Positions 3,691 through 64,000 of a stretch of DNA of 64,000 nt are shown piece by piece. Location of the stretch: positions 1-64,000 of the forward strand of contig LVLI01000202.1 in assembly GCA_001687465.1 (NCBI GenBank). The letters are read 5' to 3'. Positions within the stretch are counted from its first letter, which is position 1. Every line of letters starts with the position of its first letter. Both the position numbers and the translations under genes were made by a program. The notes under the pieces were generated by a model. That model worked only from the letters and a program-made list of their open reading frames with translations. It ran no database searches and was not told where the DNA came from. The DNA comes from Halocafeteria seosinensis (Eukaryota).

Positions 3691-4626
3691 CGGGTTTTCC
3701 TTTGTGTTTAGCCTTGCCATCCAGACCGAAACTACACCCGACGATGAATTGACTCAGTTTGAGGAAGAAGCTAGTGCGTCTTTAGTGAAAGCGTTTGCAA
3801 AAGCTGGGATGGCGCATGCCTTGAACATTCCGTACATATATATTCCACGGTAACCAAACGGAGTACGTGGCGTCCGTTCAGCGATTGTGCTACCAAATAC
3901 GACACCCGTGGGAAGGCATTTCCGATGACGAGGGTACTCGAATGAAGTGTCTTCAGAAAGCGACAAACTATCCCCCTTTTGCCCACGTACACGAAGAAGA
4001 TTCCGGAGTCGGCGTCGTCTTTACAGCGCATTTACCGTAACGTGCCGAATGAGACTAGGTTAACAAGAAATAAACGACACAGAAAATAATACACAGAACT
4101 TCTATGGTAAGTCCGGCTCTGACAGTTGCAGGAAAATGTAGCTCCAAAGGAGTCCAAACCCTCACGTTCCAGACGGGGATGTGGGCTTGTAGGCGGCTCT
4201 GTTTTCTCCCCAGCAAGTCGAACTAATAAACGTGAACTGTTTGGCATTCAGTAGATTGATGTTAATAGTTAGTAAGTACGACCCGAGGCCGCTGGAATTC
4301 CGATTTTAGCGACCAGTTGCCGCAGCGTCACAGCACTTCTTTAGGAAGCAACCGGGCCAGGCTATCCGCCGGGAATTCTAGAGCGGAGGCAAAGGCACAA
4401 ATTTTGACCCCTGGAGCTCTGTGCACGACGAGTATTGGTGGTCGCATTATATATTGTTATGGTAGCGTACCAACCTGGGATGTCCCTAGTATGTGGCCAG
4501 GGAACAACCTATATCTCGATAACGAATGCGAATTTCGGAAAACCCTGTGAGCACAATAGAAAGTGCGTATTCTTTCACCTGGTACAACTGGTTCCATTTC
4601 CATATCTATACAGTGCTTGTACGCAG

Positions 4627-5982
4627 ATGGCAAAAATAAGGGCGAAAAAGATTTCGCCCTTGTTTCTGATATCGACAGTATTGGCATTATTGAGCATAGT
4701 GGATGCGATTTCGATTGAGGAGTTTGGCGCCAAACCATTTGTTTCAAGCGAAGAAGTTGCCAGCATAAACAGCAAAGCACTGCGCAAGGCATTTTTCTGG
4801 GCGAATGCCAGCTCCAACGACAGAACTGTGGAAATTCCGGCCAATAAGAACTTCGTCGTGTTCAATACAACTGTGCAGGATGTGACTAACGTATCGCTTG
4901 AAATCAGCGGGAATCTTACGATGGCAGCGAATATTACGTGGTGGCCATACAAGAAGCAGCGTCCAGAGTGGTTCTCGATGCTAGCAATTCTTGACTCATC
5001 CTTCATTGAGCTTCGCGGAAATGGCACCGTTGATGGACAGGGTTATGACTGGTGGTGGGCAAAGTTCTTAGTAGACCCGGTGCAAAGACCTTACATGTTT
5101 ACTATTTCTCGTTGCTCAGACGTTACTATACAAGGCTTCACAGCTCTTAATTCTCCAAAGTATCATTTCAAACTGTTGAATGTGTTGCGCGTATATGTCA
5201 ACAAAATTACAATTCTTGTTGACGTCTTCAAGCAAAAAGAAATGATGCAGACGCATGGCTATTGGAAAAAGAGCAATAATGCTATCGGGGGACTACCTGT
5301 GTTTCCACTCAATACTGACGGGTTCGATCCGCGAGGAAAGAACATGCTCTTTGAGAACCTCTTTGTGCAGAACTTCGATGACGTCGTTGCTGTGAAACCT
5401 TCTCACCAAGGTGACGCCTTCACGAACTGCACCCAAAATTTAACAATAAGGAACTCGACGGTGCGACTTGGAGTGGGAATGACCATCGGGTCTGTGCCAC
5501 CTCATCCTGGCACCAACTGTGTCCGGAACGTAACCTTCGAGAACATCATTTTTGACACTCCAATAAAAGCAATATATATCAAGACGAATCCGGGAACGAC
5601 TGGCGATGGAATAATTGATAACATATTGTATAGGAATGTGACGGCCACCAACAGTCTCTGGTATCCTATTTGGATAGGACCACAACAGCAACAACAGCCT
5701 GGATCTTCTGGTACCGGTTGTAGTTTCCTCTATCCGATTGTAAAACAATGCCCTACTCAACCTCGTGTGCCAATCACGAATATTTTCCTCAAGGATATGA
5801 ATTTCACGGGTGGACTAACATTACCGGGAGTGCTGCTTTGCAATGAGACGAATCCTTGTCAGAACTTCCAATTCGACAATGTGCAAAATAATGGAGAATT
5901 TCTCATTCAGAAGGACTATGTTTGTGAAAATATCGTCTCTAGCAACAGCTCAGGAAGCATGCCTATCCCTAGCTGTTTCTAG
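4627..5982 (+). CDS. Secreted glycoside hydrolase family 28 (polygalacturonase-like)
   Basis: Intronless ORF with a likely ATG at 4627 followed by a hydrophobic signal peptide. Motifs are GNGTVDGQGYDWW, NSPKYH, NTDGFD, NFDDVVAVK, GMTIGS and IYIKT. Confidence 0.9.
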   Translation: MAKIRAKKISPLFLISTVLALLSIVDAISIEEFGAKPFVSSEEVASINSKALRKAFFWANASSNDRTVEIPANKNFVVFNTTVQDVTNVSLEISGNLTMAANITWWPYKKQRPEWFSMLAILDSSFIELRGNGTVDGQGYDWWWAKFLVDPVQRPYMFTISRCSDVTIQGFTALNSPKYHFKLLNVLRVYVNKITILVDVFKQKEMMQTHGYWKKSNNAIGGLPVFPLNTDGFDPRGKNMLFENLFVQNFDDVVAVKPSHQGDAFTNCTQNLTIRNSTVRLGVGMTIGSVPPHPGTNCVRNVTFENIIFDTPIKAIYIKTNPGTTGDGIIDNILYRNVTATNSLWYPIWIGPQQQQQPGSSGTGCSFLYPIVKQCPTQPRVPITNIFLKDMNFTGGLTLPGVLLCNETNPCQNFQFDNVQNNGEFLIQKDYVCENIVSSNSSGSMPIPSCF

Positions 5983-24917: not shown

Positions 24918-27900
24918 CTACTCCGAAGACACACTATTCGCAACTTTGGACAGAACCTCATACGTTTCTCCACTCAGCTTGCCTTCTCCGCTGTTATGAG
25001 AAGCAAGAAGATTGTTGACCTTCTGCACAACGAGATTCTGTTGTTTTGGTGGCAGTCTAGTTACAGAAGAAAAGATCCTAGCTACAGCAGAAGCTACATG
25101 AGGGTTCATCTTGTCCAAGCGCGCGATGCTCTCCCGAATGAACTCGTAACCGCTTCCATCATGGGCGTGGAAACGCGAAATATTTCCCCGAGCAAAACCA
25201 CCAATCAACGAGCGTACTTTGTTGGGGTTCTTCCAATCAAGGAAATCTGGATGCTCTGTTAGTCGCTTCACGTCTTCGAGCGAGCCGTACATTGCTTGAA
25301 TCGAGATCCACCTGACGAGACCACGACAATATTCAGATTTGCAAGCACTTCTCATAATAGTATCCCGTCGGCACTTACTTGTCCACAGCTAAACTTTCGT
25401 GGCAAAATCTGGAATGAAACAAATCAATGCTTTTTTGTCGTTCTTCATGTGTCGAGGGCACCGACATAAGAATGTTGAAAGCAGTTTGAGCTTCAGTCAT
25501 CTGAGGGAATAGCAGAACAGTCGAGTACCAGTCCTGTCTAATACACACGATTGTAAGTTCTCACCACTTACATTTTTGCACTGCTGGAGCATGTAGAAGG
25601 CAGACGTAACCGTGTTGACCTCAGCCTGAGAGACGTCCAAAGATGGCCCTTTCCCCATTGGTGTTTCGCAAAAAGGTGAGTTCATTATATTGAAAACTAC
25701 AGACCGTAAAGTTCTCTTTCCTTGTTCAGTCAAATCCAAAGAATACGGATACTGCCCAGTAAAATCTTCGTCGCCCAGCTGGGCACTGAGTGCTCGGAAA
25801 CAAGCCAACAAATCTTCTTGTAGTTCATGAGCCATATGGCGCCGCATAAGACTCTTTGCTTCTGCTAATGCAACAGGATCCGCTACTCCCTGTGGATTCT
25901 GGGTAGTGGCGTCTCCCACCAAAACAGAGAGCGGTGGAAGTCCAATGATTCGAGCCACAGTCGCCTTATCCGCTCGTTCGTCTTGAAGAAGTTGGCGAGC
26001 TGCCGTCAAAAACTTCTGACAAAACTCACTTAGTTGATCACAACTCTCTCCGTTTGCAAGCTTTTCGAATAGTTCGAGAACAACCTTCGTAGCCAACTTG
26101 TTGCCTGCTTCCCAACGATTGAATGGGTCCGAATCAAACGCCATAAGGAACAATGATTCCATAGTTTCTCGTTCACTTTGCGTTTCTGACTTATCAGAAA
26201 ATACCTTCTCTTCCCCTGCATTATCATTTTGCTGTAAGCGAATCGGAGCCGAAAACCCTCGTAGCAAAGAGGGAACCACAGGACATTTGTTCAATTCAGT
26301 GGCTGGGAGCAGGCGCTCACTCTCAACGCCCCGGTTTGACTTGGCTTTGTTTACGGCCTCACCGAGATTGGTGAACTCAAATGTCTGATGCCGCGTAGTC
26401 AGATGCAAGATAACGTATTGATCTCCCCAATCTTGTGAATTGTTACCGAGGCCCTGCGCGCCAGAGCTGGCTCCCGCAATGCCCTGTCCATACACTGGAT
26501 CCTTCGGATCTGACACCTGGTTTCCGTCTCGAGCTACCGGCTTGAGATCTTTGCCGTCTGGGCCTAACAGACCAAACCGAATTGGAATGTGCAACGGAGG
26601 CTTCTCTTCTTTATTCTCTTCATTCGGAGTAATAGGTACCCGTTGAGATAGATGAAGGGTATAAGTTCCCTTGCTTTCATTCCACTCTCCGCGCCAGTAT
26701 ACTTGCGGTGTGCCTGGGGTGCTGTACCAAAGGCGGAACTGCGCCATAGGCAGCTTCATCCGCTTTTGGGCTTCCTGTTCAATACTCTCTTGGCCTCCAG
26801 CCCACTCGTTTGCTTTCCCAAAGTTTGTTTTAAAATTGTTAAGCCACTCAGTAGAATCAACTATATTGGTACTCCAAGGTACTCGCTCCCCTGCGTGCTC
26901 CACCAAAGCATCCTCCAAAGCCGTTACCCAATCCTCGCAAGTAACTGCCGAGCCATCATGGCGATTAAAGTATAGCTCTGCTGCTTTTCTAAAAGCGGCA
27001 GGGCCCAACAGTGTAGCAGACATTCGGATAACTTCTGAGCCCTTTTCGTAAACGGTTGCAGTGTAAAGGTTGTTCATCCCAAGAACTTTATCAGGCCGAA
27101 CAGGATGAGCCATTGAACCTTGGTCTTCGGTAAACTGGGATGCACGCAAGCCGATAGTCTTTTCAATACGGCGCAGTGCACGCGAGAGACGGTCGGAGGA
27201 AAATTCTTCTTCGCGGAAAACTGTCAGCCCCTCTTTCAAGGTAAGCTGCAGCCAGTCCCGCAGAGTCACTCTATTGCCGGACCAGTTATGAAAGTACTCA
27301 TGGCCAACAACAGCCAAGATTGTATTGAAGTCGTCATCCGTTGCAACCATTTTGTCTGCCAAGATGAATTTTGTGTTGAAGATGTTCAAAGACTTGTTTT
27401 CCATGGCACCTGTAAAGGGTCATTTTGAAGCAAAACAATAGAGGCGTTGCTGACTTTTTAACTGTGTATGACCGCACACCTACCAGAATTGAAGTCATCA
27501 ATAGCCACGAGATTGAACACGTTTGAATCATATTCACGGTCATAAGCAATTTCGTCCCATTGAATAGCCATTTTCACACTCTTCATTGCATGATAACATT
27601 TGTCGATGTCTTTCTTGTCCGCAAAGACACGGATTTCAACATTGCGCCCACTCTTAGTTGTTAGGGTCTCACTGATATGACTTTTATCTGTCGCAACTAG
27701 AGCGAAAAGGTAAGATGGTTTGTAGAACGGGTCCTCCCAGCGAACCCAGTGTTTCCCATTTCCAACCTCTCCTTGTTCAACAAGATTCCCATTCGACAGC
27801 AGGACGGGGTACTTTTCTTTATCTGCCTCCATGTAGACCGTATACTTCGAAGTCACGTCGGGTCGATCAACGTGATAAACGAATTTCCGCATCCCTTCGG

Positions 27901-28622
27901 CTTCCATTTGAGTGCAAAACGTATTCCCACTCTTGTAGAGTCCTTCAAGTGTGGTGTTCTCCGCCGGATTCTCTTCCACGTTTATTTGCACCTGAGCCTC
28001 TTGAGTGGAATCTGAAAGGCCCAGGACATCTGCAGGAATCGTAAGTTTCTTTTGCTCCTCGTCTTTCTGCGGTAATAAAGAGAATGAAGCAATCAGTTGA
28101 GTCTGATCTAAAACAGTCAGGCGTACCTGAAATTGAGACTCTGAAAGCACGTTCCCATTGACCTGGATGGACTTCAACTCAAACAGCGAGGAGCCATCCA
28201 ACACAAGGGGATGAGGCGCGTCTTTCGAAAACGCTCTCTGAGGATTGCGTTTGACGGAAAGCGTGTTCTGCACACGTGTAACGGGGGTATCCAGCCATAC
28301 TTTCAGCTCCACCTGCAAGCTCACATATCGCTCAGGATATGGTTGTGATTAAAAGTCTTGGTCTGAGAGGAGATCTTACATCAGGCACCAAGTACGCCGG
28401 AGGCGTGTAATCACTTCGATCCATAGACATTTTATGAAATTCGTTCGGCGAGTTGTAGTGAAAATGACGAGTTCCAGGAGCAATGCAAGGGGTGCTAGTC
28501 CTCGAAAATGACAAACACGGGTAAGATATGCTTCGTAAGGGAAGAAACCGGGAGGTTGTGGGTTTGGATACAAGTCCACGCAGTGGCTTACAAGAGGCAG
28601 TGAATCCTCTTCGTATCAACAT
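24918..28622 (-). CDS. pepN: Aminopeptidase N (M1 family, bacterial PepN type), probable organellar targeting peptide, multi-exon
   Basis: FCTQMEAEG, WEDPFYKPSYLFALVA, GAMEN (split by an intron), HEYFHNW...LKEG zinc motif, YEKGSEVIRM and C-terminal NPNKVRSLIG. The N-terminus is R/S-rich. Confidence 0.95.
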
Positions 28623-28921
28623 GGAAGGAGAAGAACCAATCAGCTACCCTACAGGTAACAATTACTTTTGACGTCTGTTACACAAGGGACTAATCACAAC
28701 AGGAAGGCTTCTTCATCACTGTTCGAGTCGAAGCCGCAAGGGTTAAGCGAGCAATCTTTTCTTGACCTCATAACTTCAACTTGAAGACAGCTTGAAAGGT
28801 GTTCCTTCTCCTTTTCATTCATCGTATTAACTAGGTGTCGCCCGTGGAATTGTGGAGATGAGGATGGTCGTATAAGGCGAGGAATACGTTGGTATTGCAG
28901 CACTGGCTTGTATCGTAGCGT

Positions 28922-31900
28922 ATGGAAGCGGTACGGCCTGAAAGTCGAAGTAGAAGTCAAGAGACTCCTACGACTTGCGGCAAGGTTGCTACGGTTTCTC
29001 ATAGCGTTAAACACGACACTACGCGTTCCAATGAAGGAAATACGACAATCGAACACGGTCGTCCGCCTCCCACACCTCCTGTGTATATCCATGATGGATA
29101 CTTTGGCAACGATACTGAGCTAAAGGAATCGTTCTCCTCCGGCTCGAACAAAATGAACGGCAACCAGACCTCTTTGAATGGCTCCAAAACGGCAACTGCA
29201 GGCGCCTCAAGCACAGCCAAGCCCACAAATGATGGAGAAATCCGGACGAAGCGGTCATCGGCTTACAGGAAAAATGATGTGAATTCACTAACAGGGAGTA
29301 CGGACCAACTGTCACTTGACAACCAACCGCGTCAGTCTTCGCGCGAGAGCACGGGAAACTCTTCAAATACTCAGCATAGTCCCCTATTTCATAGCCGTCA
29401 AGGTCGCTCACGAAGTGGCGCTTTTAGCGAAGCTTCTGATGACGGGAGGAGAGTCCGTTCAGCTATACAGCAAGGGAAGGTCACCGAGGCGTTGGGGATC
29501 CTGCAGAGCAATCCAGTGATACTTAGCTTACCAGATATGAATCCTCTTCACGATATACTACCCTTGATATTACACTCCTTGGCGGAAAGTTATGATAGTT
29601 ATGGAATCCAGGGAAATGAAGGCGTTTACTTTGATTTCTATCGCTACTTGCACAAGTGTATGACACGAGAAGAGAAGGCATCTACTCAGACGCTGGCAAC
29701 GATGTTCTATGCGGCCTGCAAGTTTAACCAAACCGATTTTGCTGACTGGATCCTCGTCGAAATATCTTCCAAGACTCAATTGAGTATCGACCGTCTGGCA
29801 GTGGATAGGTCGTACCGGTATAATCGTCTTCGGCACTGTGGATTGCACTATGTGGCTCGCAACGGAAACGTTAGGCTTCTCCAACACCTTAGCAAGTACT
29901 GCTCTGCGTCGCCGTTGCTGTTGGAATCTTCGTTATTAATGCAGTTTCCTCAGGGTCAAGAAGGAATGGAGCTCTCGTCGCTGTATATTGCTGCATCTCA
30001 GCGTCACAAGGGATTTGTCAGACACGCCATAGAAAGCCANCGCCACAAGTTCGACGATGAAGGGATGACTGCAGAATCTACAACGGCAGTGCAGAACTCA
30101 TCTTCGACAGGCTCCTCTGATAATAGGCTACGAGTTCCCGCCGGCCTGCGGCAGCTGGTGATGTGCTTAATGATACATGGGCTTGTTGCCTTAGATGACG
30201 TACCCACCGCTGAGTGGATTCGAAGGGAATGCATGTCTCTTGATCCCATTGTTTTGACTCTCCCTATGGCTACTTCGGCGGATGGACAGGGAAACTTGCG
30301 TTTCCCGCCTTCGATGGATAGGTCTACTGATGGACAAGCAGCAGCGCCTTTGTCACTACCGAAGGAAAAGAACGGGGAAAAGAGCCCCGAAAACTCTGAG
30401 TCTCAACAAAAACTCTCAGACGATAGGAAGTATATCCTGGGACGTAAGAGTCAGAACGTCCCGAGTGCCCAAAGCACGAACGAGGCAACGAACTGTTTGG
30501 CGCTACATTTGTGTTTATACCGTCTTCCCCCTTCCCCGCACCAAGCGAAGAGTGTTCCTTCGGCAGCCACTGCAGCTGGTATTTCTCTTAACCCCTCTGG
30601 CGGCCCTGAAGATGTGGTTCCTCGGCGGAGTGCGGTTGAACGCCTAAGAGAATATACCGCAGAATTTCGGCAGGAATTCCGTGGAGAAAAATCTCAGCAA
30701 AAAAGAAACGACCAGCAGCAGGAGAGTGACAATGCTGCCGTAAACTCTATCTTGCATCAACATATATACAATTATAGTGATCAAGGTCGTCCTGCTGCAC
30801 CTCACCCTGCGTTAAACATGTTTGGTTGGCTGCTGAACCATTTCCCCTGGTTGGCCAGCCGGCCGTTCTGTATTATGACTGGAGAAGCAAGCCAAAAGCG
30901 TTTAGAGTGGAGGAATGCGTTCCACAGTGCGTGCAGTGTAGGCTGTCGTTCTGCCGCGGAACAACTCCTTGATGTTGATCCTGAACTGTTACACACATAT
31001 TCGTACAGTGTACAGTTAGGAACTTGCTCGAAACTTCAAGATCCCTCTACGTGCTCTGATGATGTGATCGAGTTCCACCCACTGTTTATCACTATTGGAC
31101 ACTGCAGACTAACTGGGCAGTTCGACTTCCTCAGATGGTTGTTAAGTCACTATGAAGAGCAAACGATCGACCGCGAAGTTTACGAAGCATGTCAGGGCCT
31201 GCATGTAATGGTTCCTGATTTTGTTAAGGATGTATGTAAGAATACCGGACTAAGCTTGAGAAGGATGATGGGTATGCCTTCGCGATCCAAAGTATCCAGT
31301 GGTCGGTGGTCTTCCCAAAATACCAGTCGTTTAAGCAGTCAGAGTCGCACCGAGAGTATGGAAGGTGGGTCCAATATCAAAGGTACATCGTTTAACAGTA
31401 ATCGCTCCAGAAGTGAGACGGATAGCACATCTGAGACACCGATTGCATCACCGCAGCAGTATGGAGCTTCACGAGGCATTTCATTGGATAACAATTTTCA
31501 CTTAGATTCTTTTGGTGCCGACGATGCATCTGATGCGTTTCCGGATGACAGTTCCCATACATCGGATCATCAAACAAGACCTGCAAAAAACAAGAAGAAT
31601 ACGTCTGAGAAAGGAAAGAGAAGAGGTAACGAGAAGAATAGAAAGAAAGAAAGGGGGCGGAGAAGGAAAACCAAAGGTGCGCGTGATACGGACGTGGACG
31701 AGAGTGACACACCGTCTCACCAACGGTCTCGAGGGGATACCTCACAGAGCGCTGACGCTCTGCTGATGAGCCATCAGGATGACGAGACAGATGTAGACAG
31801 GTCCAGGTGTCTACTGAAGCACAGTGGCGGAAGCAATGTAAATGATATGAGCCGGATTCCAAGCTATGAATCAAACATATCTGAAGCGGAAGCCCAGCAT

Positions 31901-33802
31901 ATGCGCGCATTTGCCCTTCATGAGGACACAGCCAGGTTAGACAAGCGTGGCCCGAGTGCTCTCAGCACAATTCACTCGGTTTCTCCCTCCTTCGGAGCTC
32001 AAGACTCTCCTGTTGGTGTTGAAGATGATCCCAAGAATTCCGCACCAGATTGTACCAATGTATCTTCTACATCATTTTCGCTGGATAATGAGCAACGTGA
32101 GAAAGAGGAATATAGCACTGCTGCGATGAACTCAGACGCTCCCTTTGCCGCATCAGTTCAACCTGACATTCCTTCCACTGCATCCCTAACGCGGTCGTCA
32201 CAGAAGTCAGTAGACATTCCAGGTGCCCAGACCTGCGCCTCAGCTTCCACAAAGTCTCATACTGAGGAAACTCAAAGGAGTGCTAGCGTCCGTGTACTAG
32301 AGGAGGATAATCATAGCGAATGCTCCTCAGAGGAGGGAGAAGATATACGGATTAGGAACATATCTTTCAATGACGCGGACATCCTCTACCTGGGCTCAGG
32401 TGGTCTGGAGATTTTCCGCGGGTGCTGTGGGAGGCGGGCAGCAGCTATAAAGCGAGTGCGACGGCGCCTGTTCCCTAATGCATTGCGAGAAAAGATTGTC
32501 AATATTATGTTGACACTGTCAGAGGACTCCGATGAAGGCAGTGGGCGGTACATTTTGAGGTATTTCGATGATACAACGGATAAAAAGTATTGGTATTTGG
32601 CGACCGAACTATGCGAAAATAGCCTCGACAGAGCAATCGAGCAAGGGTGTGATCAGACTCGTGCTCACTTTACCACACGCTTTCCGAACAATGAATCGTC
32701 CACGTGGGTAACATTGCGTTCATTGCAGAGTATGCCTGTTGACTTTTGTAGGCAGCTCTTAAAAGCAGCGGATCACATACACAGTAAGGGGTTTGTTCAC
32801 GGCTTCATTAGCCCGAAGAGTGTTTTGTTGAAGAAAGGTACTGTTAAGCTTAGCGGCTTTGGAACATCTCTCTTCTTTAAACACGAGAAATTACCGGACA
32901 ACGTTAACCAAGAGTGGCTGGCACCAGAGGTTATGGGAAGTAAGACCAGGAGCGGACATACGGAGTGGAGTCAAGCGGTTGATTCGTTTTCTGTAGGATG
33001 CATAATTTTTTACATACTTTCAGGGGGAAAGCATCCTTTCGGAACTCCCAATGAAAGATTATACAACATGCTACAGGTGGGAAAGCCACCATACTCTAAT
33101 CTCCGGAAATCCTGGTGGGAGAGCTTGCCCGAGTTCTCTACGGAGGCTGCTTCTTATGCAAGCGTATCCTACGCTCCAGCATCCACAGCATGTAGAGAAA
33201 TTCCGTGGCAATACTACTACGGGGGGATCCATTTGGTCCGCGAACTAATACAGCAAAATCCGAAGAACAGACTCTCAGTTCATGCGGCTTTATCTCACCC
33301 AATGTTCTGGACAACTCGTCAGCAGATTGAAACAATTGCTGCTTTCAGTGACGTCGCTAAACAGTTATACGGAATGCTTCCTATTTGGGAGAGCTCAAAA
33401 GCCATCGAGAGACTAGAAAAAGCCTTTCGCCATTTCGAGGGAAGCTCTGAAGAAAAGCTAAATTGGGTCAATAAGCTGCGCGTAGATGATGAGCGCGCGC
33501 ACCGACAATGGGAAGTAATTTCCAGTTCTTCGTCAGAGTGGAAGTCTCCGCAAGAGTACTTCAAAATGTATACAGCCAAAGAAAGGCAACTTCACGCTGT
33601 GGGCCTGTGTCGAGCTATCCGAAACATAGCTTACGCTCATACTATCGAATACGTTTCTGCCGGATTGTTCGCATCCGTGGAGCAAGTCCATACATACTTC
33701 CTTGGAAATTTTCCCTGGCTAATGGTGGAAATCTACGATATAGTTACAAGTGGCATAGACCCTCAACTGTCACAAGAACTACGGGGACTTTTGCCGACTT
33801 AA
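28922..33802 (+). CDS. Ankyrin-like repeats plus IRE1/RNase L-type pseudokinase plus KEN ribonuclease-like domain
   Basis: 1626-aa intronless ORF. Ankyrin-like segments: GLHYVARNGNVRLLQHL, SLYIAASQRHKGFVRH, NAFHSACSVGCRSAAEQLL. Kinase fold: LGSGG..IFRG..GRRAAAIKR, ILRYF..YLATELCENSL, WLAPE, VDSFSVGCIIFYILSGGKHPFG, ALSHPMFW. KEN-like: LCRAIRNIAYAH...YFLGNFPWLMVEIY. Confidence 0.85.
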   Translation: MEAVRPESRSRSQETPTTCGKVATVSHSVKHDTTRSNEGNTTIEHGRPPPTPPVYIHDGYFGNDTELKESFSSGSNKMNGNQTSLNGSKTATAGASSTAKPTNDGEIRTKRSSAYRKNDVNSLTGSTDQLSLDNQPRQSSRESTGNSSNTQHSPLFHSRQGRSRSGAFSEASDDGRRVRSAIQQGKVTEALGILQSNPVILSLPDMNPLHDILPLILHSLAESYDSYGIQGNEGVYFDFYRYLHKCMTREEKASTQTLATMFYAACKFNQTDFADWILVEISSKTQLSIDRLAVDRSYRYNRLRHCGLHYVARNGNVRLLQHLSKYCSASPLLLESSLLMQFPQGQEGMELSSLYIAASQRHKGFVRHAIESXRHKFDDEGMTAESTTAVQNSSSTGSSDNRLRVPAGLRQLVMCLMIHGLVALDDVPTAEWIRRECMSLDPIVLTLPMATSADGQGNLRFPPSMDRSTDGQAAAPLSLPKEKNGEKSPENSESQQKLSDDRKYILGRKSQNVPSAQSTNEATNCLALHLCLYRLPPSPHQAKSVPSAATAAGISLNPSGGPEDVVPRRSAVERLREYTAEFRQEFRGEKSQQKRNDQQQESDNAAVNSILHQHIYNYSDQGRPAAPHPALNMFGWLLNHFPWLASRPFCIMTGEASQKRLEWRNAFHSACSVGCRSAAEQLLDVDPELLHTYSYSVQLGTCSKLQDPSTCSDDVIEFHPLFITIGHCRLTGQFDFLRWLLSHYEEQTIDREVYEACQGLHVMVPDFVKDVCKNTGLSLRRMMGMPSRSKVSSGRWSSQNTSRLSSQSRTESMEGGSNIKGTSFNSNRSRSETDSTSETPIASPQQYGASRGISLDNNFHLDSFGADDASDAFPDDSSHTSDHQTRPAKNKKNTSEKGKRRGNEKNRKKERGRRRKTKGARDTDVDESDTPSHQRSRGDTSQSADALLMSHQDDETDVDRSRCLLKHSGGSNVNDMSRIPSYESNISEAEAQHMRAFALHEDTARLDKRGPSALSTIHSVSPSFGAQDSPVGVEDDPKNSAPDCTNVSSTSFSLDNEQREKEEYSTAAMNSDAPFAASVQPDIPSTASLTRSSQKSVDIPGAQTCASASTKSHTEETQRSASVRVLEEDNHSECSSEEGEDIRIRNISFNDADILYLGSGGLEIFRGCCGRRAAAIKRVRRRLFPNALREKIVNIMLTLSEDSDEGSGRYILRYFDDTTDKKYWYLATELCENSLDRAIEQGCDQTRAHFTTRFPNNESSTWVTLRSLQSMPVDFCRQLLKAADHIHSKGFVHGFISPKSVLLKKGTVKLSGFGTSLFFKHEKLPDNVNQEWLAPEVMGSKTRSGHTEWSQAVDSFSVGCIIFYILSGGKHPFGTPNERLYNMLQVGKPPYSNLRKSWWESLPEFSTEAASYASVSYAPASTACREIPWQYYYGGIHLVRELIQQNPKNRLSVHAALSHPMFWTTRQQIETIAAFSDVAKQLYGMLPIWESSKAIERLEKAFRHFEGSSEEKLNWVNKLRVDDERAHRQWEVISSSSSEWKSPQEYFKMYTAKERQLHAVGLCRAIRNIAYAHTIEYVSAGLFASVEQVHTYFLGNFPWLMVEIYDIVTSGIDPQLSQELRGLLPT

Positions 33803-33862
33803 GTACACCAAAATAAACGTACCCAAGTATCCGCAGCCCTACCTCAAGTTTACGATTCCCAC

Positions 33863-35460
33863 TCATACAGCACTGTCTTGTCGACCTGTTTCCTCATCGC
33901 TTCCATCTTCATGCTGTTCAACTAGCCTAGGGCGATGCGTCCGAGGGACGCCTCGCGGGCGTCTAGGTGAAGGGGGTCGTGCCTTTCTCGGACCAACGTA
34001 CGAGCGCTGTGAGTTTGGAGTCTGCTCTTGCAGTCGCTCGCGCCGAGAGGCATTGTTCTGCGGAGAAACTAGCTCTTCTGTCTGCGGCTTTGGCGTTAGT
34101 GCGGAGCTTCGACGTGGAGCAATTGGCATCGATGTCGGGTGTTCAAAGACAGTGGGCCGTCGTGCAGTCGAGAACGGCGTATACGACCGTGCTCTTCCCG
34201 TTCCGTCTGAGACCTGCTCTGTGCCGGGTACAGGCAGTTGTGCGGATGAATCCCCACCTGGTTGATATCTAAGATGGGTCGGTCCTTCCACTATCGAGGG
34301 GGTCTTAGGATGTTCAGGGATAAAGTAGTCTCCCAACGACCGTATAAAGTGTGAATCCCATTCTTTGAGCATTTTAAAGTTTTGATCTCCAAGATATGCG
34401 CTAATCATCAATGCGAAGTGCAATAAAAACTCTGCTGTGTTTACTAAAAACGGTGCGTCCATCGAGGAAGGGGTAACCAGTAGGGCTACCAAATATAAGG
34501 AAGCTGCTACAGTAAGTGAGGCCCATGGGTTAAAAATTGTGGCTCGTACATCAGTAGAAATGCTGGTACCGTATCTCCAAAATGAAATTCCAGTGTAGAA
34601 GCTTTTGGCAAACAGTATCAGTGGGACAACAAAATCCATCACTGAGCTGAACGTCACATCGTCTTGGCGATCCCCTGACCCAGGTATCTGTAATTTCTTG
34701 TTGGTAAACCTGCCCTAACAAAAATCAACACTGTAGTGGTAACAACATTACCTCGATCAGTGATAGATATATAACCAACCTGTATGTCTCCGTAAATCGA
34801 TCAACATCCGATATGTGCGTGGCGGACGCTATAATCGAGACAATAGCCAAGAATAAAGCTGTGACCCAAATGCTGTATCTCGATACTTGTGATGCAAATC
34901 CATATTTTTTCCGATGGCCTTGCTGTAGGGGCAGTAACAAGTAACTAGCAATCCTGTCGCTTGGAACTCGTCTTCCAATTGACGCGAACTTACATCAAAC
35001 GTAATGCAGCAGAAGAAATTTGCGCTTCTAGCTTTATGCACTTCATAGTTCAGTTCAAATTGAGTTATAATGAGCATCGGTGCAATAAAGCCTGAAAAAA
35101 TAAGATCGTACACAACTTTGTACGTTCCGCCGAGGGTTCTTCCCTTCATTGACTACGTACTCGCCACCGCAAATCGTATTTGCAGTAATGCTTCGGGGCG
35201 TTCCGGTTCCACCGCGATGGACGCCGCGAGGGTCCCATTTTCCAGAGCCATGAAAAACGCTGTCACAGGCTGCAGCACAAACGGTGAACATCTACAAGCT
35301 GACGCACGTTGGGCGGGCGTTGACGTACCATGAACAAATAGCCCACTTTATTCGAGTAGGGCGACGCCAAGTACCCCGTCACGAACATAGCCACGAGGAA
35401 CAGCGCCATTAGTAACCAGAAGGGCCATGCCGGCCCTGAGAGGTCCTGATGGTCGCTCAT
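33863..35460 (-). CDS. Hypothetical multi-pass membrane protein (about 7 TM) with a disordered C-tail, multi-exon
   Basis: Consecutive hydrophobic exon ORFs (35460 start MSDHQDLSGPAWPFWLLM; 34829-35149; 34725-34940; 33863-34657) with GT-AG boundaries. Confidence 0.7.
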
Positions 35461-36061
35461 GACTGGATTAAACACTTGTACAGATCCCCTCCGACAAGCT
35501 TCTGCGCGCCATATGTGCTGCCGACGGACGCTATTCGTCAGTCCTGTTTGCGCGTCTGACCGAAACAAATGGATATTGTCTACTGCACGCAGTGCTACTA
35601 ATACAATCGGTACATAGCATCTGAACACTCCGTAAGAAATGCCAAACGGCCATCCATCAATGCGACGGCCGGGCGAGTCAACGTGGGCAACAACGACCTC
35701 CCTCGAGATTCTCCTGCTACAGTTGGTAGAAGCAACGCAAAAAAAAAAAAAAAAAGAAGAAGAAGAGTTGCTTGTAAAGTCCAAACAATATATTAGGATC
35801 ATTTAAAAAACAGAAAAGAGCAAGATGCATTTGTATGACTACAGCGGACCCGGGATAAGTGCGCCAGCCTAGACTCGCGAGTCGCGATTTGTGTCCATAC
35901 TGAAAGAGTGGTATAATTCTGAATGAATCATTGCTATTAATACCGGACATTCGCTATCATTCCAACTCCAGGATAGGCATGTCAACCGAACATTTGTTCG
36001 AGAACCTTATCTTTCGTTGGAAGATCCTATATCTAATTCATTCAGGTCATCAAACGCCTAC

Positions 36062-62003: not shown

Positions 62004-64000
62004 ATGGGAGGGAACCACAGCAAAGGTAAGCTCTATGTCCCCTGGGCCTTGGCTGCAGTATTAGTCAACGTAGTGCCTTGCGTTGTCTTGCTATGTGGGT
62101 TTACAGAGGTGCCTGACGCCTCCCATACCACGAGGCGCTCGAATACTAAGCGAGGAGGGCGCAAACATGCTGTGGCGGCGGCTGAAAGTGCGCCCAAAAG
62201 CCCAGCAGCTTCTTCACTGGCAGACTTGATCGAGCAGGATACTTCCCGAATGTATATTCACTTGGATCCGGATGTACGTGGACATGGACCGAGATTGCAC
62301 TCTCCTTGTACTCTTATCCACGAATGCGTGTATGCATGGGCAATACAGAGCATCATTCGGTATGTCTCGGCGGCCAGTGAAAGGTTCTTGGGATACTCTT
62401 CAGAAGATATGGTGGGTCATCGAAACTCATCCTTCATACACGAAAACGATCGAGTAAGTCTAGGTCCGAAAAGAACTCTCAAGTAAAGGTATTTGATAAC
62501 TTGCATCCAAATTGGTTTGGTTTGCCGCAGGAGACTGTCGAGAACAAGTTCTTGGAAGCAAAACGCGCACCACACACTGCCATCAGCGTCAAATTCCGAA
62601 GAAAGCACAACAATGGAATGCATACGCGAGTTGGTAAGTAAACGTGATCAATTACACCCAGTTTTCCTTCCTCTTTGATGAATTTTCCCAACTGTATGTT
62701 ATTCCAGAGTTTTACGGTCATTGGATCTGCAAACACGATGAACCTATTGGTATCACTGGGTGGGAGCAAGATGCTGAACGTGGCAAGAACGAGCAAGAAG
62801 AGCTTGTGGAAGAAGCGTCGACGACCAAGGATCAAACAGCCGCTGAAAATAGCAAGATTATGACATTTGCGCTTCACGAGTTACGCAACGCCATCCATGC
62901 CTTAGATGCTTCAGCAACTTACATTGAGGAAGTGAGTCTCATAATGCTCTTTAATACTCCCCCTCCCAAACGTAGCGAGTTTGGCTTTTTGTTTTGTTTT
63001 GTACCTAATACAGCTTACCGGTGAAACAATGGATGACGAGGTGAAAGAGTCGGTAAATGACATGATGTTCGCGGCCAAGAACACCAATGTTCTTGTCGGG
63101 GATATATTGTCGTTAATTGGACTTCGTGAAGGAACTGTTATTACGAATGCTGAAGACTTTCCAATTAGAAGTTATATCAAAGATCTTACTGCCTCCATGC
63201 AAACACTAAGCTCTGTTCCCGTTGTACCCGTTGTCACAGAGGAAGTCCCTGTAGTCGTCTGCGCGGACTGGGACAGCATAGCACAGATTTTAAAGAACGG
63301 TCTAATGAATGCAATCAAATACTGTGGCCAAAACACCGAACCAATTTATGTTCGTGTTTCGAAAGAAGAAACACATCTGACTTTCGAAGTACGAGACAAA
63401 GGTACTTCTTTAGGAGATGTATCTCAGGAAAAGCTGATGAAAGCTCTAACCCAAGGCATACCCCTTCGGGGAGCACGAGCGCAGCGAACGAGTCTCTTTC
63501 TACCAATTGCGGATAACGTTGTCCGGAAACTTATGTTTGGGAAGGTAATAGCAGCTGTTGCTAAATGTCCAGGGGTCAAACGAGTTTCACATCTTCCTGA
63601 TTCGTGGTTCACAGGTAGGGATAGATTCTCATGAGGGTGTTACCAAGTTCTGGTTTACGGCTAAGTACTCACCGACATCCGATTCTAAGAAGAGTATGAT
63701 GGCGGTCCGTGAAGAAAAAGAGTGGTCTTTAGTAGCTCAAGTACTGCCGGGTTCATCAGAGAGGCCAGAACCAATATCGACCAAGCAATCTTCATCCGTG
63801 GCCACTCCCACGGACAAGTTCTTACAAACAATCACGCCTGAAGGCTCCGCCTCGCCAACCAGCACGCCTAAGAGAAGTCGTGAAAAGAAAGTTATCGGAG
63901 TGGAAGGAGACGGGAAATCGCTTAATTTGCACGTATTGCTGGTCGATGATCAAAAGGTTGTAAGACGTCAAGCTGCCTCGTTTTTGGATCAGTTAGGGTG
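62004..64000 (+). CDS. Hybrid sensor histidine kinase (PAS-HisKA-HATPase-receiver), runs off the window end
   Basis: PAS IRYVSAASERFLGYSSEDMVG...FIHEND, H-box FALHELRNAIHAL, N-box QILKNGLMNAIKY, FEVRDKG and receiver start LHVLLVDDQKVVR, with multiple introns. Confidence 0.88.

What the first reader, a model, noticed from the sequence alone, without database searches (positions are those of the whole stretch)
28922..33802. RNase L-like architecture (ankyrin + pseudokinase + KEN RNase, no membrane anchor) in a protist
Seen: N-terminal ankyrin-like repeats, a long disordered linker, then a kinase fold with IRE1/RNase L hallmarks (YLATELC, GCIIFYILSGGKHPFG, HPMFW). A C-terminal domain follows with LCRAIRNIAYAH and YFLGNFPWL. 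The catalytic HRD reads HGF and DFG reads GFG, so it is a predicted pseudokinase, and no signal peptide or TM helix is evident. Known: IRE1 is an ER membrane protein with an active kinase-KEN, whereas soluble ankyrin-pseudokinase-KEN defines vertebrate RNase L, the 2-5A-activated antiviral nuclease. KEN belongs to the HEPN superfamily (R-x4-6-H; here R-x5-H). Inference: this may be a ligand-activated cytosolic ribonuclease, a candidate antiviral or stress effector in a unicellular eukaryote. It could be a convergent build from IRE1 or a deep RNase L relative.
Basis: partly seen in the sequence, partly recalled or inferred. Interest (0 to 1): 0.88.

Follow-up and report, generated by a model that had tools for sequence, protein, structure and literature searches.

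The report
RNase L look-alike built from IRE1
A single-celled eukaryote has an intact gene joining degenerate ankyrin-like repeats, an IRE1-type kinase fold that has lost its catalytic residues, and a predicted RNA-cutting domain; the layout resembles the vertebrate antiviral enzyme RNase L but likely arose independently, and its closest relatives still keep the kinase residues.

Summary
ORF 28922-33802 (1,626 aa) encodes a degenerate ankyrin-like solenoid, a ~360-aa disordered linker, an IRE1-type kinase fold lacking HRD, catalytic Asn and DFG, and a divergent KEN domain (profile match to IRE1 KEN, probability 96.6%) that keeps R1567, N1568 and H1573. No membrane helix is seen, and a contig spliced at neighbouring genes crosses the ORF without a joint.

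New here: it belongs to a small family. Three full-length orthologues keep HRD/DFG; this gene and three distant paralogues lack them. R-N-I-x3-H is invariant in 8 of 8 KEN-bearing clusters. The kinase C-lobe has decayed (29% identity to orthologues) while KEN (47%) and the first ankyrin block (70%) have not. The kinase matches IRE1, not RNase L. The best reading is a convergent, ligand- or partner-gated cytosolic RNase, not an RNase L orthologue. 2-5A activation and an antiviral role are untested.

Independent ankyrin gain by kinase-RNase proteins is already in print (PMC10400998). This scan found similar layouts on other DNA (e1-7185690, e1-9515428) but not this family.

The parts
28922..33802 (+). 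Whole gene, single ORF of 1,626 aa; in-frame TAG at 28916-28918 just upstream of the ATG
   Evidence: X3 contig covers 28844-34706 without a joint while introns of the neighbour are skipped in the same contig
28922..29428 (+). Disordered N-terminal tail (aa 1-169), no signal-peptide-like stretch
   Evidence: low hydrophobic content; 11 of 169 positions invariant in 4 orthologues
29429..31276 (+). Alpha-solenoid with degenerate, interrupted ankyrin-like repeats (aa 170-785); predicted sensor module
   Evidence: 236 positions invariant in 4 orthologues, 76 invariant with the distant paralogues too
29678..30037 (+). First ankyrin-like block (aa 253-372: FYAACKFNQ, LHYVARNGN, LYIAASQRH); most conserved part of the protein
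   Evidence: 67-71% identity to three orthologues; VIA Z 7.0-7.6 to FEM1B and TRABID ankyrin regions
30899..31276 (+). Second ankyrin-like block (aa 660-785: AFHSACSVG, HPLF)
   Evidence: VIA Z 7.8 to LegA11, 7.2 to TRPC1/C5 N-terminus; Ank_5 E 1e-4 in P0003
31277..32341 (+). Disordered linker (aa 786-1140) with a basic Lys/Arg patch near aa 890-920
   Evidence: 17-22% identity to orthologues; 367 aa here, 315-370 in orthologues, 689 and 1152 in paralogues
32342..33310 (+). IRE1-type pseudokinase (aa 1141-1463): beta3 Lys1177 kept; HRD to HGF (32798-32806), catalytic Asn to Ser1300, DFG to GFG (32855-32863)
   Evidence: no listed difference at HGF or GFG in 4 runs
33311..33799 (+). Divergent KEN (HEPN-type) RNase domain (aa 1464-1626): R1567 (33620), N1568 (33623), H1573 (33638); Tyr partner is Y1546 or Y1550; one residue more between R and H than IRE1

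Best explanation
This gene encodes an IRE1-type kinase fold that has lost its catalytic residues, fused to a KEN domain that keeps Arg-Asn-His and to a conserved ankyrin-like solenoid, and it likely works as a latent cytosolic endoribonuclease that is predicted to switch on when the solenoid binds a ligand or partner. Shown: domain order, loss of HRD/Asn/DFG, kept KEN residues, no hydrophobic membrane-length segment, and a family with both intact-kinase and dead-kinase members. Inferred from IRE1/RNase L chemistry: (1) the solenoid binds an unknown cytosolic signal and clusters; (2) because it hangs on a 300+ residue disordered tether, it would raise the local concentration of the kinase-KEN units, as IRE1's lumenal domain does, and not clamp the kinase directly as RNase L does; (3) kinase N-lobes pair back to back (Arg594- and Arg627-equivalents R1172 and R1213 are kept); (4) the paired KEN domains cut single-stranded RNA without metal. 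In the orthologues autophosphorylation could add a second input; in this lineage it cannot. The job (stress-regulated mRNA decay versus defence) is not resolved; regulated decay is somewhat more likely than a 2-5A-type antiviral role.
For: Family: full-length orthologues P0003/P0153, P0168 and P0169/P0207 (38-40% identity to the window protein), partial P0004, distant paralogues P0026, P0170, P0035, P0142/P0206. R-N-I-x3-H is present in 8 of 8 clusters that reach the KEN domain; P0170 ends before it. In a 65-row alignment these residues fall in the columns of the IRE1 catalytic R, N and H (R 63, N 63, H 64 of 65), which PMC3149027 shows to be catalytic (H1061N at least 3e5-fold slower). Selective decay: window versus orthologues 0.29 in the kinase C-lobe but 0.47 in KEN, 0.47 in the N-lobe and 0.70 in the first ankyrin block, whereas two intact-kinase orthologues show 0.60, 0.62, 0.71 and 0.79. 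Tree: family 99/96, outside the canonical IRE1 set; AU rejects joining it to the other ankyrin-kinase-KEN protein P0104 (p 0.004) or to two animal-type IRE1s (p 0.003). Back-to-back pairing and its arginines: PMC4536996, PMC7547215; residues (mapping to human numbers partly recalled).
Against: No activity data. The KEN is very divergent: below Pfam's cut-off, no IRE1 or RNase L hit when the KEN-only profile is run on the PDB at E up to 10, Atlas score only 0.89, a lead. It has one extra residue between R and H, which could displace the His. The Tyr partner is ambiguous and reads Phe at one candidate position in three orthologues. The Asp620-equivalent is not cleanly alignable, and the distant paralogues P0026 and P0035 lack the Arg594-equivalent in the alignment (P0035 may be cut there). 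No usable structure of the kinase-KEN part was obtained (pLDDT 37). No ligand or ligand-making enzyme could be looked for, as no genome is held.
Confidence: 0.55

Rival explanations
1. The KEN domain folds but is catalytically weak or dead, and the protein is a scaffold or RNA-binding regulator; in the orthologues the kinase is the output.
For: R-x5-H spacing against R-x4-H in IRE1; sub-threshold Pfam score; no KEN match in the PDB by KEN-only profile; uncertain Tyr.
Against: R, N and H are invariant in 8 of 8 clusters, including all three dead-kinase members that reach the KEN. R-x4-6-H is the general HEPN active-site motif (PMC3710099). KEN stays more conserved than the kinase C-lobe in this gene.
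Confidence: 0.2
2. It is a convergent innate-immune effector gated by a nucleotide second messenger (2-5A or a cyclic oligonucleotide), working as RNase L does against viruses.
For: Same domain order as RNase L. Polar and basic residues of the first ankyrin block are invariant even in distant paralogues (K267, N269, Q270, D295, N301, R304, H305, N314), as a small-ligand site might be. HEPN RNases are often defence effectors (PMC3710099).
Against: PMC10400998 found OAS-related proteins only in amoebozoans, choanoflagellates and animals in its sample, and this organism's lineage is undetermined. RNase L's ankyrin-kinase linker is structured and takes part in 2-5A binding (PMC4718504); here it is 367 disordered residues. 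The pseudokinase lacks the metal ligands RNase L keeps. No copy-number expansion was seen among the hits, and no defence genes neighbour it.
Confidence: 0.18
3. It is a true deep orthologue of vertebrate RNase L.
For: Domain order only.
Against: The kinase matches IRE1 far better. The closest relatives have intact kinase motifs. The sister clade is a multi-membrane-span family. PMC10400998 places RNase L's origin just before jawed vertebrates. Caveat: no RNase L sequence was in my tree.
Confidence: 0.04
4. It is an ordinary ER-membrane IRE1 whose signal peptide or membrane exon was missed.
For: IRE1 is the best solved relative; one partial orthologue is labelled IRE1A in NCBI.
Against: No hydrophobic segment between solenoid and kinase here or in three orthologues (maxima 1.54-1.72, inside the kinase in the orthologues, against about 2-3 in most full-length IRE1-type hits). 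A contig that is spliced at the neighbouring gene runs 28844-34706 without a joint and includes the in-frame stop before the ATG. The divergent pepN-like gene lies about 500 bp upstream.
Confidence: 0.03

Closest known systems
IRE1 (yeast Ire1p, human ERN1; PDB 4u6r, 3p23, 2rio, 3fbv)
   Same: Kinase fold most similar (E 3.5e-41 by family profile); kinase-KEN junction HPxFW; KEN with R, N, H; N-lobe arginines of the back-to-back dimer; sensor tethered by a long disordered linker.
   Different: No lumenal domain or membrane helix; ankyrin-like solenoid instead; kinase dead in this member; R-x5-H instead of R-x4-H; KEN too divergent for Pfam's cut-off.
Vertebrate RNase L
   Same: Soluble ankyrin - pseudokinase - KEN order; predicted dimer-gated RNase.
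   Different: Degenerate interrupted repeats; 367-aa disordered linker instead of a structured one; pseudokinase lacks the Asn and DFG Asp, while RNase L binds ATP with two cations (PMC4718504); twice the length (RNase L's ~740 aa is recalled); closest relatives have intact kinase motifs; 2-5A binding not shown.
Non-RNase L kinase-RNase proteins with independently gained ankyrins (PMC10400998), and P0104 found here
   Same: Ankyrin + IRE1-type kinase + KEN without membrane anchor, outside the RNase L clade.
   Different: P0104 has canonical repeats, an 81-aa linker and a separate place in the tree (AU p 0.004). Whether the paper's unnamed cases include this family could not be checked (supplement unreadable).
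Soluble IRE-like kinases of amoebozoans (e.g. Dictyostelium purpureum P0087; the name Irl is recalled)
   Same: Kinase-KEN with no membrane helix and a long helical N-terminal region.
   Different: No homology to this family's solenoid; separate branch in the tree.

Membership tests
RNase L | N-terminal ankyrin repeat domain | tested here: met
   Met loosely: sub-threshold Pfam Ank hits in window and orthologues, VIA Z 7-7.8 on two blocks, Atlas Ank clusters at 0.95; repeats are degenerate and interrupted.
RNase L | 2-5A binding site on the ankyrin domain | tested here: inconclusive
   An ankyrin-only profile found no ankyrin protein in the PDB at E up to 10 and RNase L was not listed in fold searches, so the residues could not be mapped.
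RNase L | Structured ankyrin-kinase linker that takes part in 2-5A binding (PMC4718504) | tested here: not met
   367-aa low-complexity linker, 17-22% identical among orthologues, 315-1152 aa across the family.
RNase L | Pseudokinase that still binds ATP with two cations through conserved kinase residues (PMC4718504) | tested here: not met
   By sequence: catalytic-loop Asn is Ser1300 and DFG Asp is Gly1312. Binding itself was not measured. Closest orthologues have intact motifs.
RNase L | Falls in the RNase L clade of jawed vertebrates (PMC10400998) | tested here: inconclusive
   No RNase L sequence was available for the tree. Indirect evidence is against: IRE1 E 1e-41 with RNase L not in the 60 rows shown; sister group is a multi-TM family.
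RNase L | Partner OAS enzyme in the same genome | not testable with these tools
   No genome held; no nucleotidyltransferase family among the 26 window ORFs scanned.
IRE1 | Signal peptide, ER-lumenal sensor and single membrane helix | tested here: not met
   Hydropathy maximum 1.54; unspliced bridging contig with upstream in-frame stop.
IRE1 | Active Ser/Thr kinase motifs (beta3 Lys, HRD, Asn, DFG) | tested here: not met
   Only Lys1177 kept in this gene; all four kept in P0003, P0168, P0169.
IRE1 | IRE1-type kinase followed directly by KEN | tested here: met
KEN / HEPN RNase domain | R-x4-6-H motif with polar residue after R (PMC3710099) | tested here: met
   R1567-N1568-x4-H1573; invariant in 8 of 8 clusters.
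KEN / HEPN RNase domain | KEN helical fold and dimeric active site | tested here: inconclusive
KEN / HEPN RNase domain | Metal-independent RNA cleavage | not testable with these tools
   Needs an assay.

The most novel reading that the evidence does not exclude
A protist lineage independently built an RNase L equivalent: a cytosolic KEN nuclease switched on by an unknown nucleotide second messenger bound in a conserved ankyrin solenoid and used against viruses. The family preserves both the intact-kinase and dead-kinase stages of the IRE1-to-RNase L transition, and its sister clade wired the same dead-kinase-KEN unit to multi-pass membrane receptors.
Probability: 0.18. Interest if true: 0.87.

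Novelty: new variant of a known kind. Interest (0 to 1): 0.53.

Why it matters
RNase L is thought to have arisen from an IRE1-like kinase-RNase by gaining ankyrins and losing kinase activity. This family repeats that path on its own and holds both states in orthologous full-length proteins. One can therefore test directly what kinase death does to RNase control, and hunt for the activating signal of a protist nuclease. It also shows that KEN domains below Pfam's threshold hide a wider set of sensor-RNase fusions in protists.

Tried and rejected
Whole-genome search for a canonical IRE1 or OAS/cGAS-like genes: no genome held.

Folding and fold searches: the single-sequence fold of kinase-KEN gave pLDDT 37 and its fold search only generic helical bundles, best Z 6.8; uninformative. 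Foldseek on the solenoid model: no match at E up to 0.001. RNase L was not listed in either fold search, which excludes nothing. Dimer prediction of kinase-KEN was not available; nothing was folded.

Profile searches: ankyrin-only and KEN-only profiles against the PDB gave only chance hits. A search meant to bring in RNase L sequences through P0104 returned 3 proteins and no RNase L. The first homologue search, on the kinase-KEN region, found 1 protein among 5,508 candidates.

Loci: viral contigs gave 41 pattern matches and no relative. Metagenome contigs gave 1 locus from 276 pattern matches, too little for synteny; its upstream frame is a Bin3-type methyltransferase, unlike the window.

Runs: no RNA holder listed on record. 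All four runs are one study, at most three samples, and may be the window's source. Allelic differences: 6 of 10 listed kinase differences change a residue against 2 of 10 in the solenoid, and none is listed in KEN (one search showed 40 of 49 rows). These are too few to weigh, and the difference-free tract extends into the next gene.

Trees: a single origin of the three family pseudokinases in the tree is not rejected (AU p 0.17); a single origin with the membrane-bound sister clade is only weakly rejected (p 0.038), so the number of kinase losses is open. The careful 64-row tree did not finish. Rows dropped: P0110 (no motif found), P0148 (63-aa fragment); P0170, P0142 and P0004 were not included, nor near-duplicates.

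Lineage: RACK1 look-ups gave no lineage; it stays undetermined. Two RNase L structure papers were not held.

Full report
Observation. The window holds a 1,626-aa ORF at 28922-33802 (+), with one ambiguous base at 30040. Pfam gives a clear kinase (E 1.4e-21) but only sub-threshold Ank_2 (E 0.001) and Ribonuc_2-5A (E 0.014) hits, so both ends were tested further. The host is a eukaryote with 59-71 nt GT-AG introns in neighbouring genes and a RACK1 whose exact sequence is in EukProt. Its lineage was not determined, so 'protist' is an inference.

Gene structure. Three of four public runs (X2-X4) skip the introns of both neighbours, and X1 does not; X2-X4 therefore behave as spliced RNA, though none is on record as RNA and all belong to one study that may be the window's source. 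One X3 contig runs from 28844 to 34706 without a joint and is spliced further on in the neighbour. It includes the in-frame TAG at 28916. In that form no upstream or internal exon adds a membrane helix. Contigs cannot show a transcript start. The hydropathy maximum is 1.54, against about 2-3 for most full-length IRE1-type hits. No listed difference touches HGF or GFG or breaks the frame.

KEN is real but divergent. A KEN-only alignment of three family members matches an alignment of 16 IRE1-type proteins at 96.6%, E 5.9e-10. An HMM from 52 non-family KEN domains finds only this ORF among 609 window frames (E 8e-6) and scores all five family KENs tested above every reported shuffle. R1567, N1568 and H1573 align with the IRE1 residues R1056, N1057 and H1061, which PMC3149027 (passages read) identifies as active-site residues, the His being worth at least 3e5-fold and Y1043 about tenfold. 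The family carries one extra residue between R and H; this fits the HEPN R-x4-6-H motif (PMC3710099, passages). The Tyr partner is Y1550 by profile alignment or Y1546 by MAFFT. Against: a KEN-only profile finds neither IRE1 nor RNase L in the PDB, the Atlas gives only 0.89, and no reliable model was obtained.

The N-terminal region. Residues 170-785 fold as an alpha-solenoid in a model of mean pLDDT 49.7, confident only at the two ends. Two blocks align with ankyrin proteins at Z 7-7.8, but the top rows are generic helical repeats and the tool treats this range as non-specific; Foldseek found nothing significant. Weak Ank hits recur in the orthologues and several Atlas neighbours at 0.95 are Ank clusters. 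I read it as degenerate, interrupted ankyrin repeats preceded by other helical repeats. It is the most conserved part (70% identity in aa 253-372), with polar residues invariant even in distant paralogues, which suggests a binding site (inference).

The family. A search of 1.84 billion representatives and a profile search found three full-length orthologues (P0003/P0153, P0168, P0169/P0207), a partial one labelled IRE1A of Symbiodinium sp. KB8 (P0004, near-identical to part of P0169; I could not verify that label), and distant paralogues P0026, P0170, P0035 and P0142/P0206. All but P0004 and a contig filed as an archaeal MAG (P0206) are unnamed metagenomic records. The orthologues keep Lys, HRD, Asn and DFG; this gene and P0026, P0035 and P0170 read HG instead of HRD and lack DFG (P0170 has DVG). 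The alphaC Glu here is probably Ile1192 by the family alignment, although a single-sequence alignment puts Glu1190 there. R-N-I-x3-H is present in 8 of 8 clusters reaching the KEN. Relative to its orthologues this gene has lost identity mainly in the catalytic C-lobe (0.29) and not in KEN or the N-lobe (0.47 each), whereas two intact-kinase orthologues are equally alike in C-lobe and KEN (0.60, 0.62). That is what one expects if phosphotransfer was dropped while the scaffold and the RNase were kept.

Ancestry. The family profile finds IRE1 structures at E 1e-37 to 1e-41, then unrelated kinases at 1e-17 or weaker; RNase L is not among the 60 of 241 rows shown. In a 64-row quick tree and a 22-row careful tree (386 columns) the family is one group (99/96), sister to multi-pass membrane proteins with an HGN-type pseudokinase and KEN (100/98), one of them labelled Picozoa. 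Long branches and biased composition may help to join these two groups. AU tests reject joining the family to P0104, a separate protein with canonical ankyrins, pseudokinase and KEN (p 0.004), or to two animal-type IRE1s (p 0.003). They leave open whether the family's kinase died once or twice (p 0.17). No RNase L sequence could be included, so non-orthology rests on indirect evidence.

Mechanism. RNase L is activated when 2-5A binds its ankyrins and drives back-to-back dimers with ATP bound in the pseudokinase (PMC7547215, passages); its linker is structured and it binds two cations (PMC4718504, passages). Here the linker is 367 disordered residues and both metal ligands are gone, so direct clamping is unlikely. 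I propose an IRE1-like tethered scheme: signal binding clusters the solenoid, the kinase N-lobes pair, and the KEN pair cuts RNA. The equivalents of Arg594 and Arg627 (PMC4536996, passages) are kept as R1172 and R1213 (numbering partly recalled), while the Asp620 equivalent is uncertain. All of these steps are inferred. The signal and the biological role are unknown; nothing here shows antiviral function, and OAS-related genes could not be sought.

Prior knowledge and novelty. PMC10400998 (parts 1-2 of 6 of the text and passages read; supplement unreadable) states that several kinase-RNase proteins outside the RNase L clade gained ankyrins independently; its sample had 13 protists and 4 chromists, and I could not see whether this family is among them. 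PMC3710099 lists KEN-kinase fusions with ankyrins. PMC6025073 (passages) describes membrane-bound Dictyostelium IreA only. Seven paper searches (listings only for papers not named above) showed no description of this family. Earlier notes of this scan report other ankyrin-kinase-KEN and soluble pseudokinase-KEN genes on other DNA, unchecked by me, and none similar in sequence to P0003.

Verdict. A real, intact, probably expressed gene; a new variant of the IRE1/RNase L kinase-KEN kind. It likely works like RNase L in outline but is not filed as RNase L (two defining features not met) nor as IRE1 (two not met). Interest 0.53.

Noticed in passing
proteins P0131, P0063, P0076, P0122, P0072, P0075 (hits): A clade of multi-pass membrane proteins (weak PF06011 TRP-like hits; Cys-rich TNFR-like ectodomain in P0063) fused to an HGN-type pseudokinase and a KEN domain; P0131 is labelled Picozoa in EukProt; P0075 is a fragment without the membrane part and P0072 has Gln for the KEN His. 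Sister to this family. Looks like a cell-surface-receptor-gated RNase; no earlier scan note matched.
   Followed up: partly
protein P0104 (696 aa, 7 metagenomic members): A separate ankyrin + pseudokinase (HNN) + KEN protein with canonical repeats and an 81-aa linker, closer to RNase L in size and layout than the window's gene; groups with Pigoraptor P0086.
   Followed up: partly
protein P0002 (Sinanodonta woodiana label): IRE1-type kinase-KEN behind VWA and PF06701 (MIB/HERC2, name recalled) domains with no clear membrane helix; another sensor swap or a fused gene model.
   Followed up: no
window 4459-5982 (+): Glycoside hydrolase family 28 gene, E 5e-32.
   Followed up: no
window 62004-63634 (+): PAS and HATPase_c pieces, probably exons of a sensor histidine kinase.
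   Followed up: no
window 25497-28430 (-): Bacterial PepN-like M1 aminopeptidase (DUF3458 domains), divergent from the gene studied, with two introns skipped in X2-X4.
   Followed up: partly
window 33863-35647 (-): Convergent spliced gene with four 59-71 nt introns, weak CDP-alcohol phosphatidyltransferase hit; assembled into one contig with the studied gene in X2 and X3, so their 3' ends may overlap.
   Followed up: no
protein P0206 (NCBI RYE84879.1): A KEN fragment of this eukaryotic family is filed under a Methanosarcinales MAG; likely a binning contaminant.
   Followed up: no
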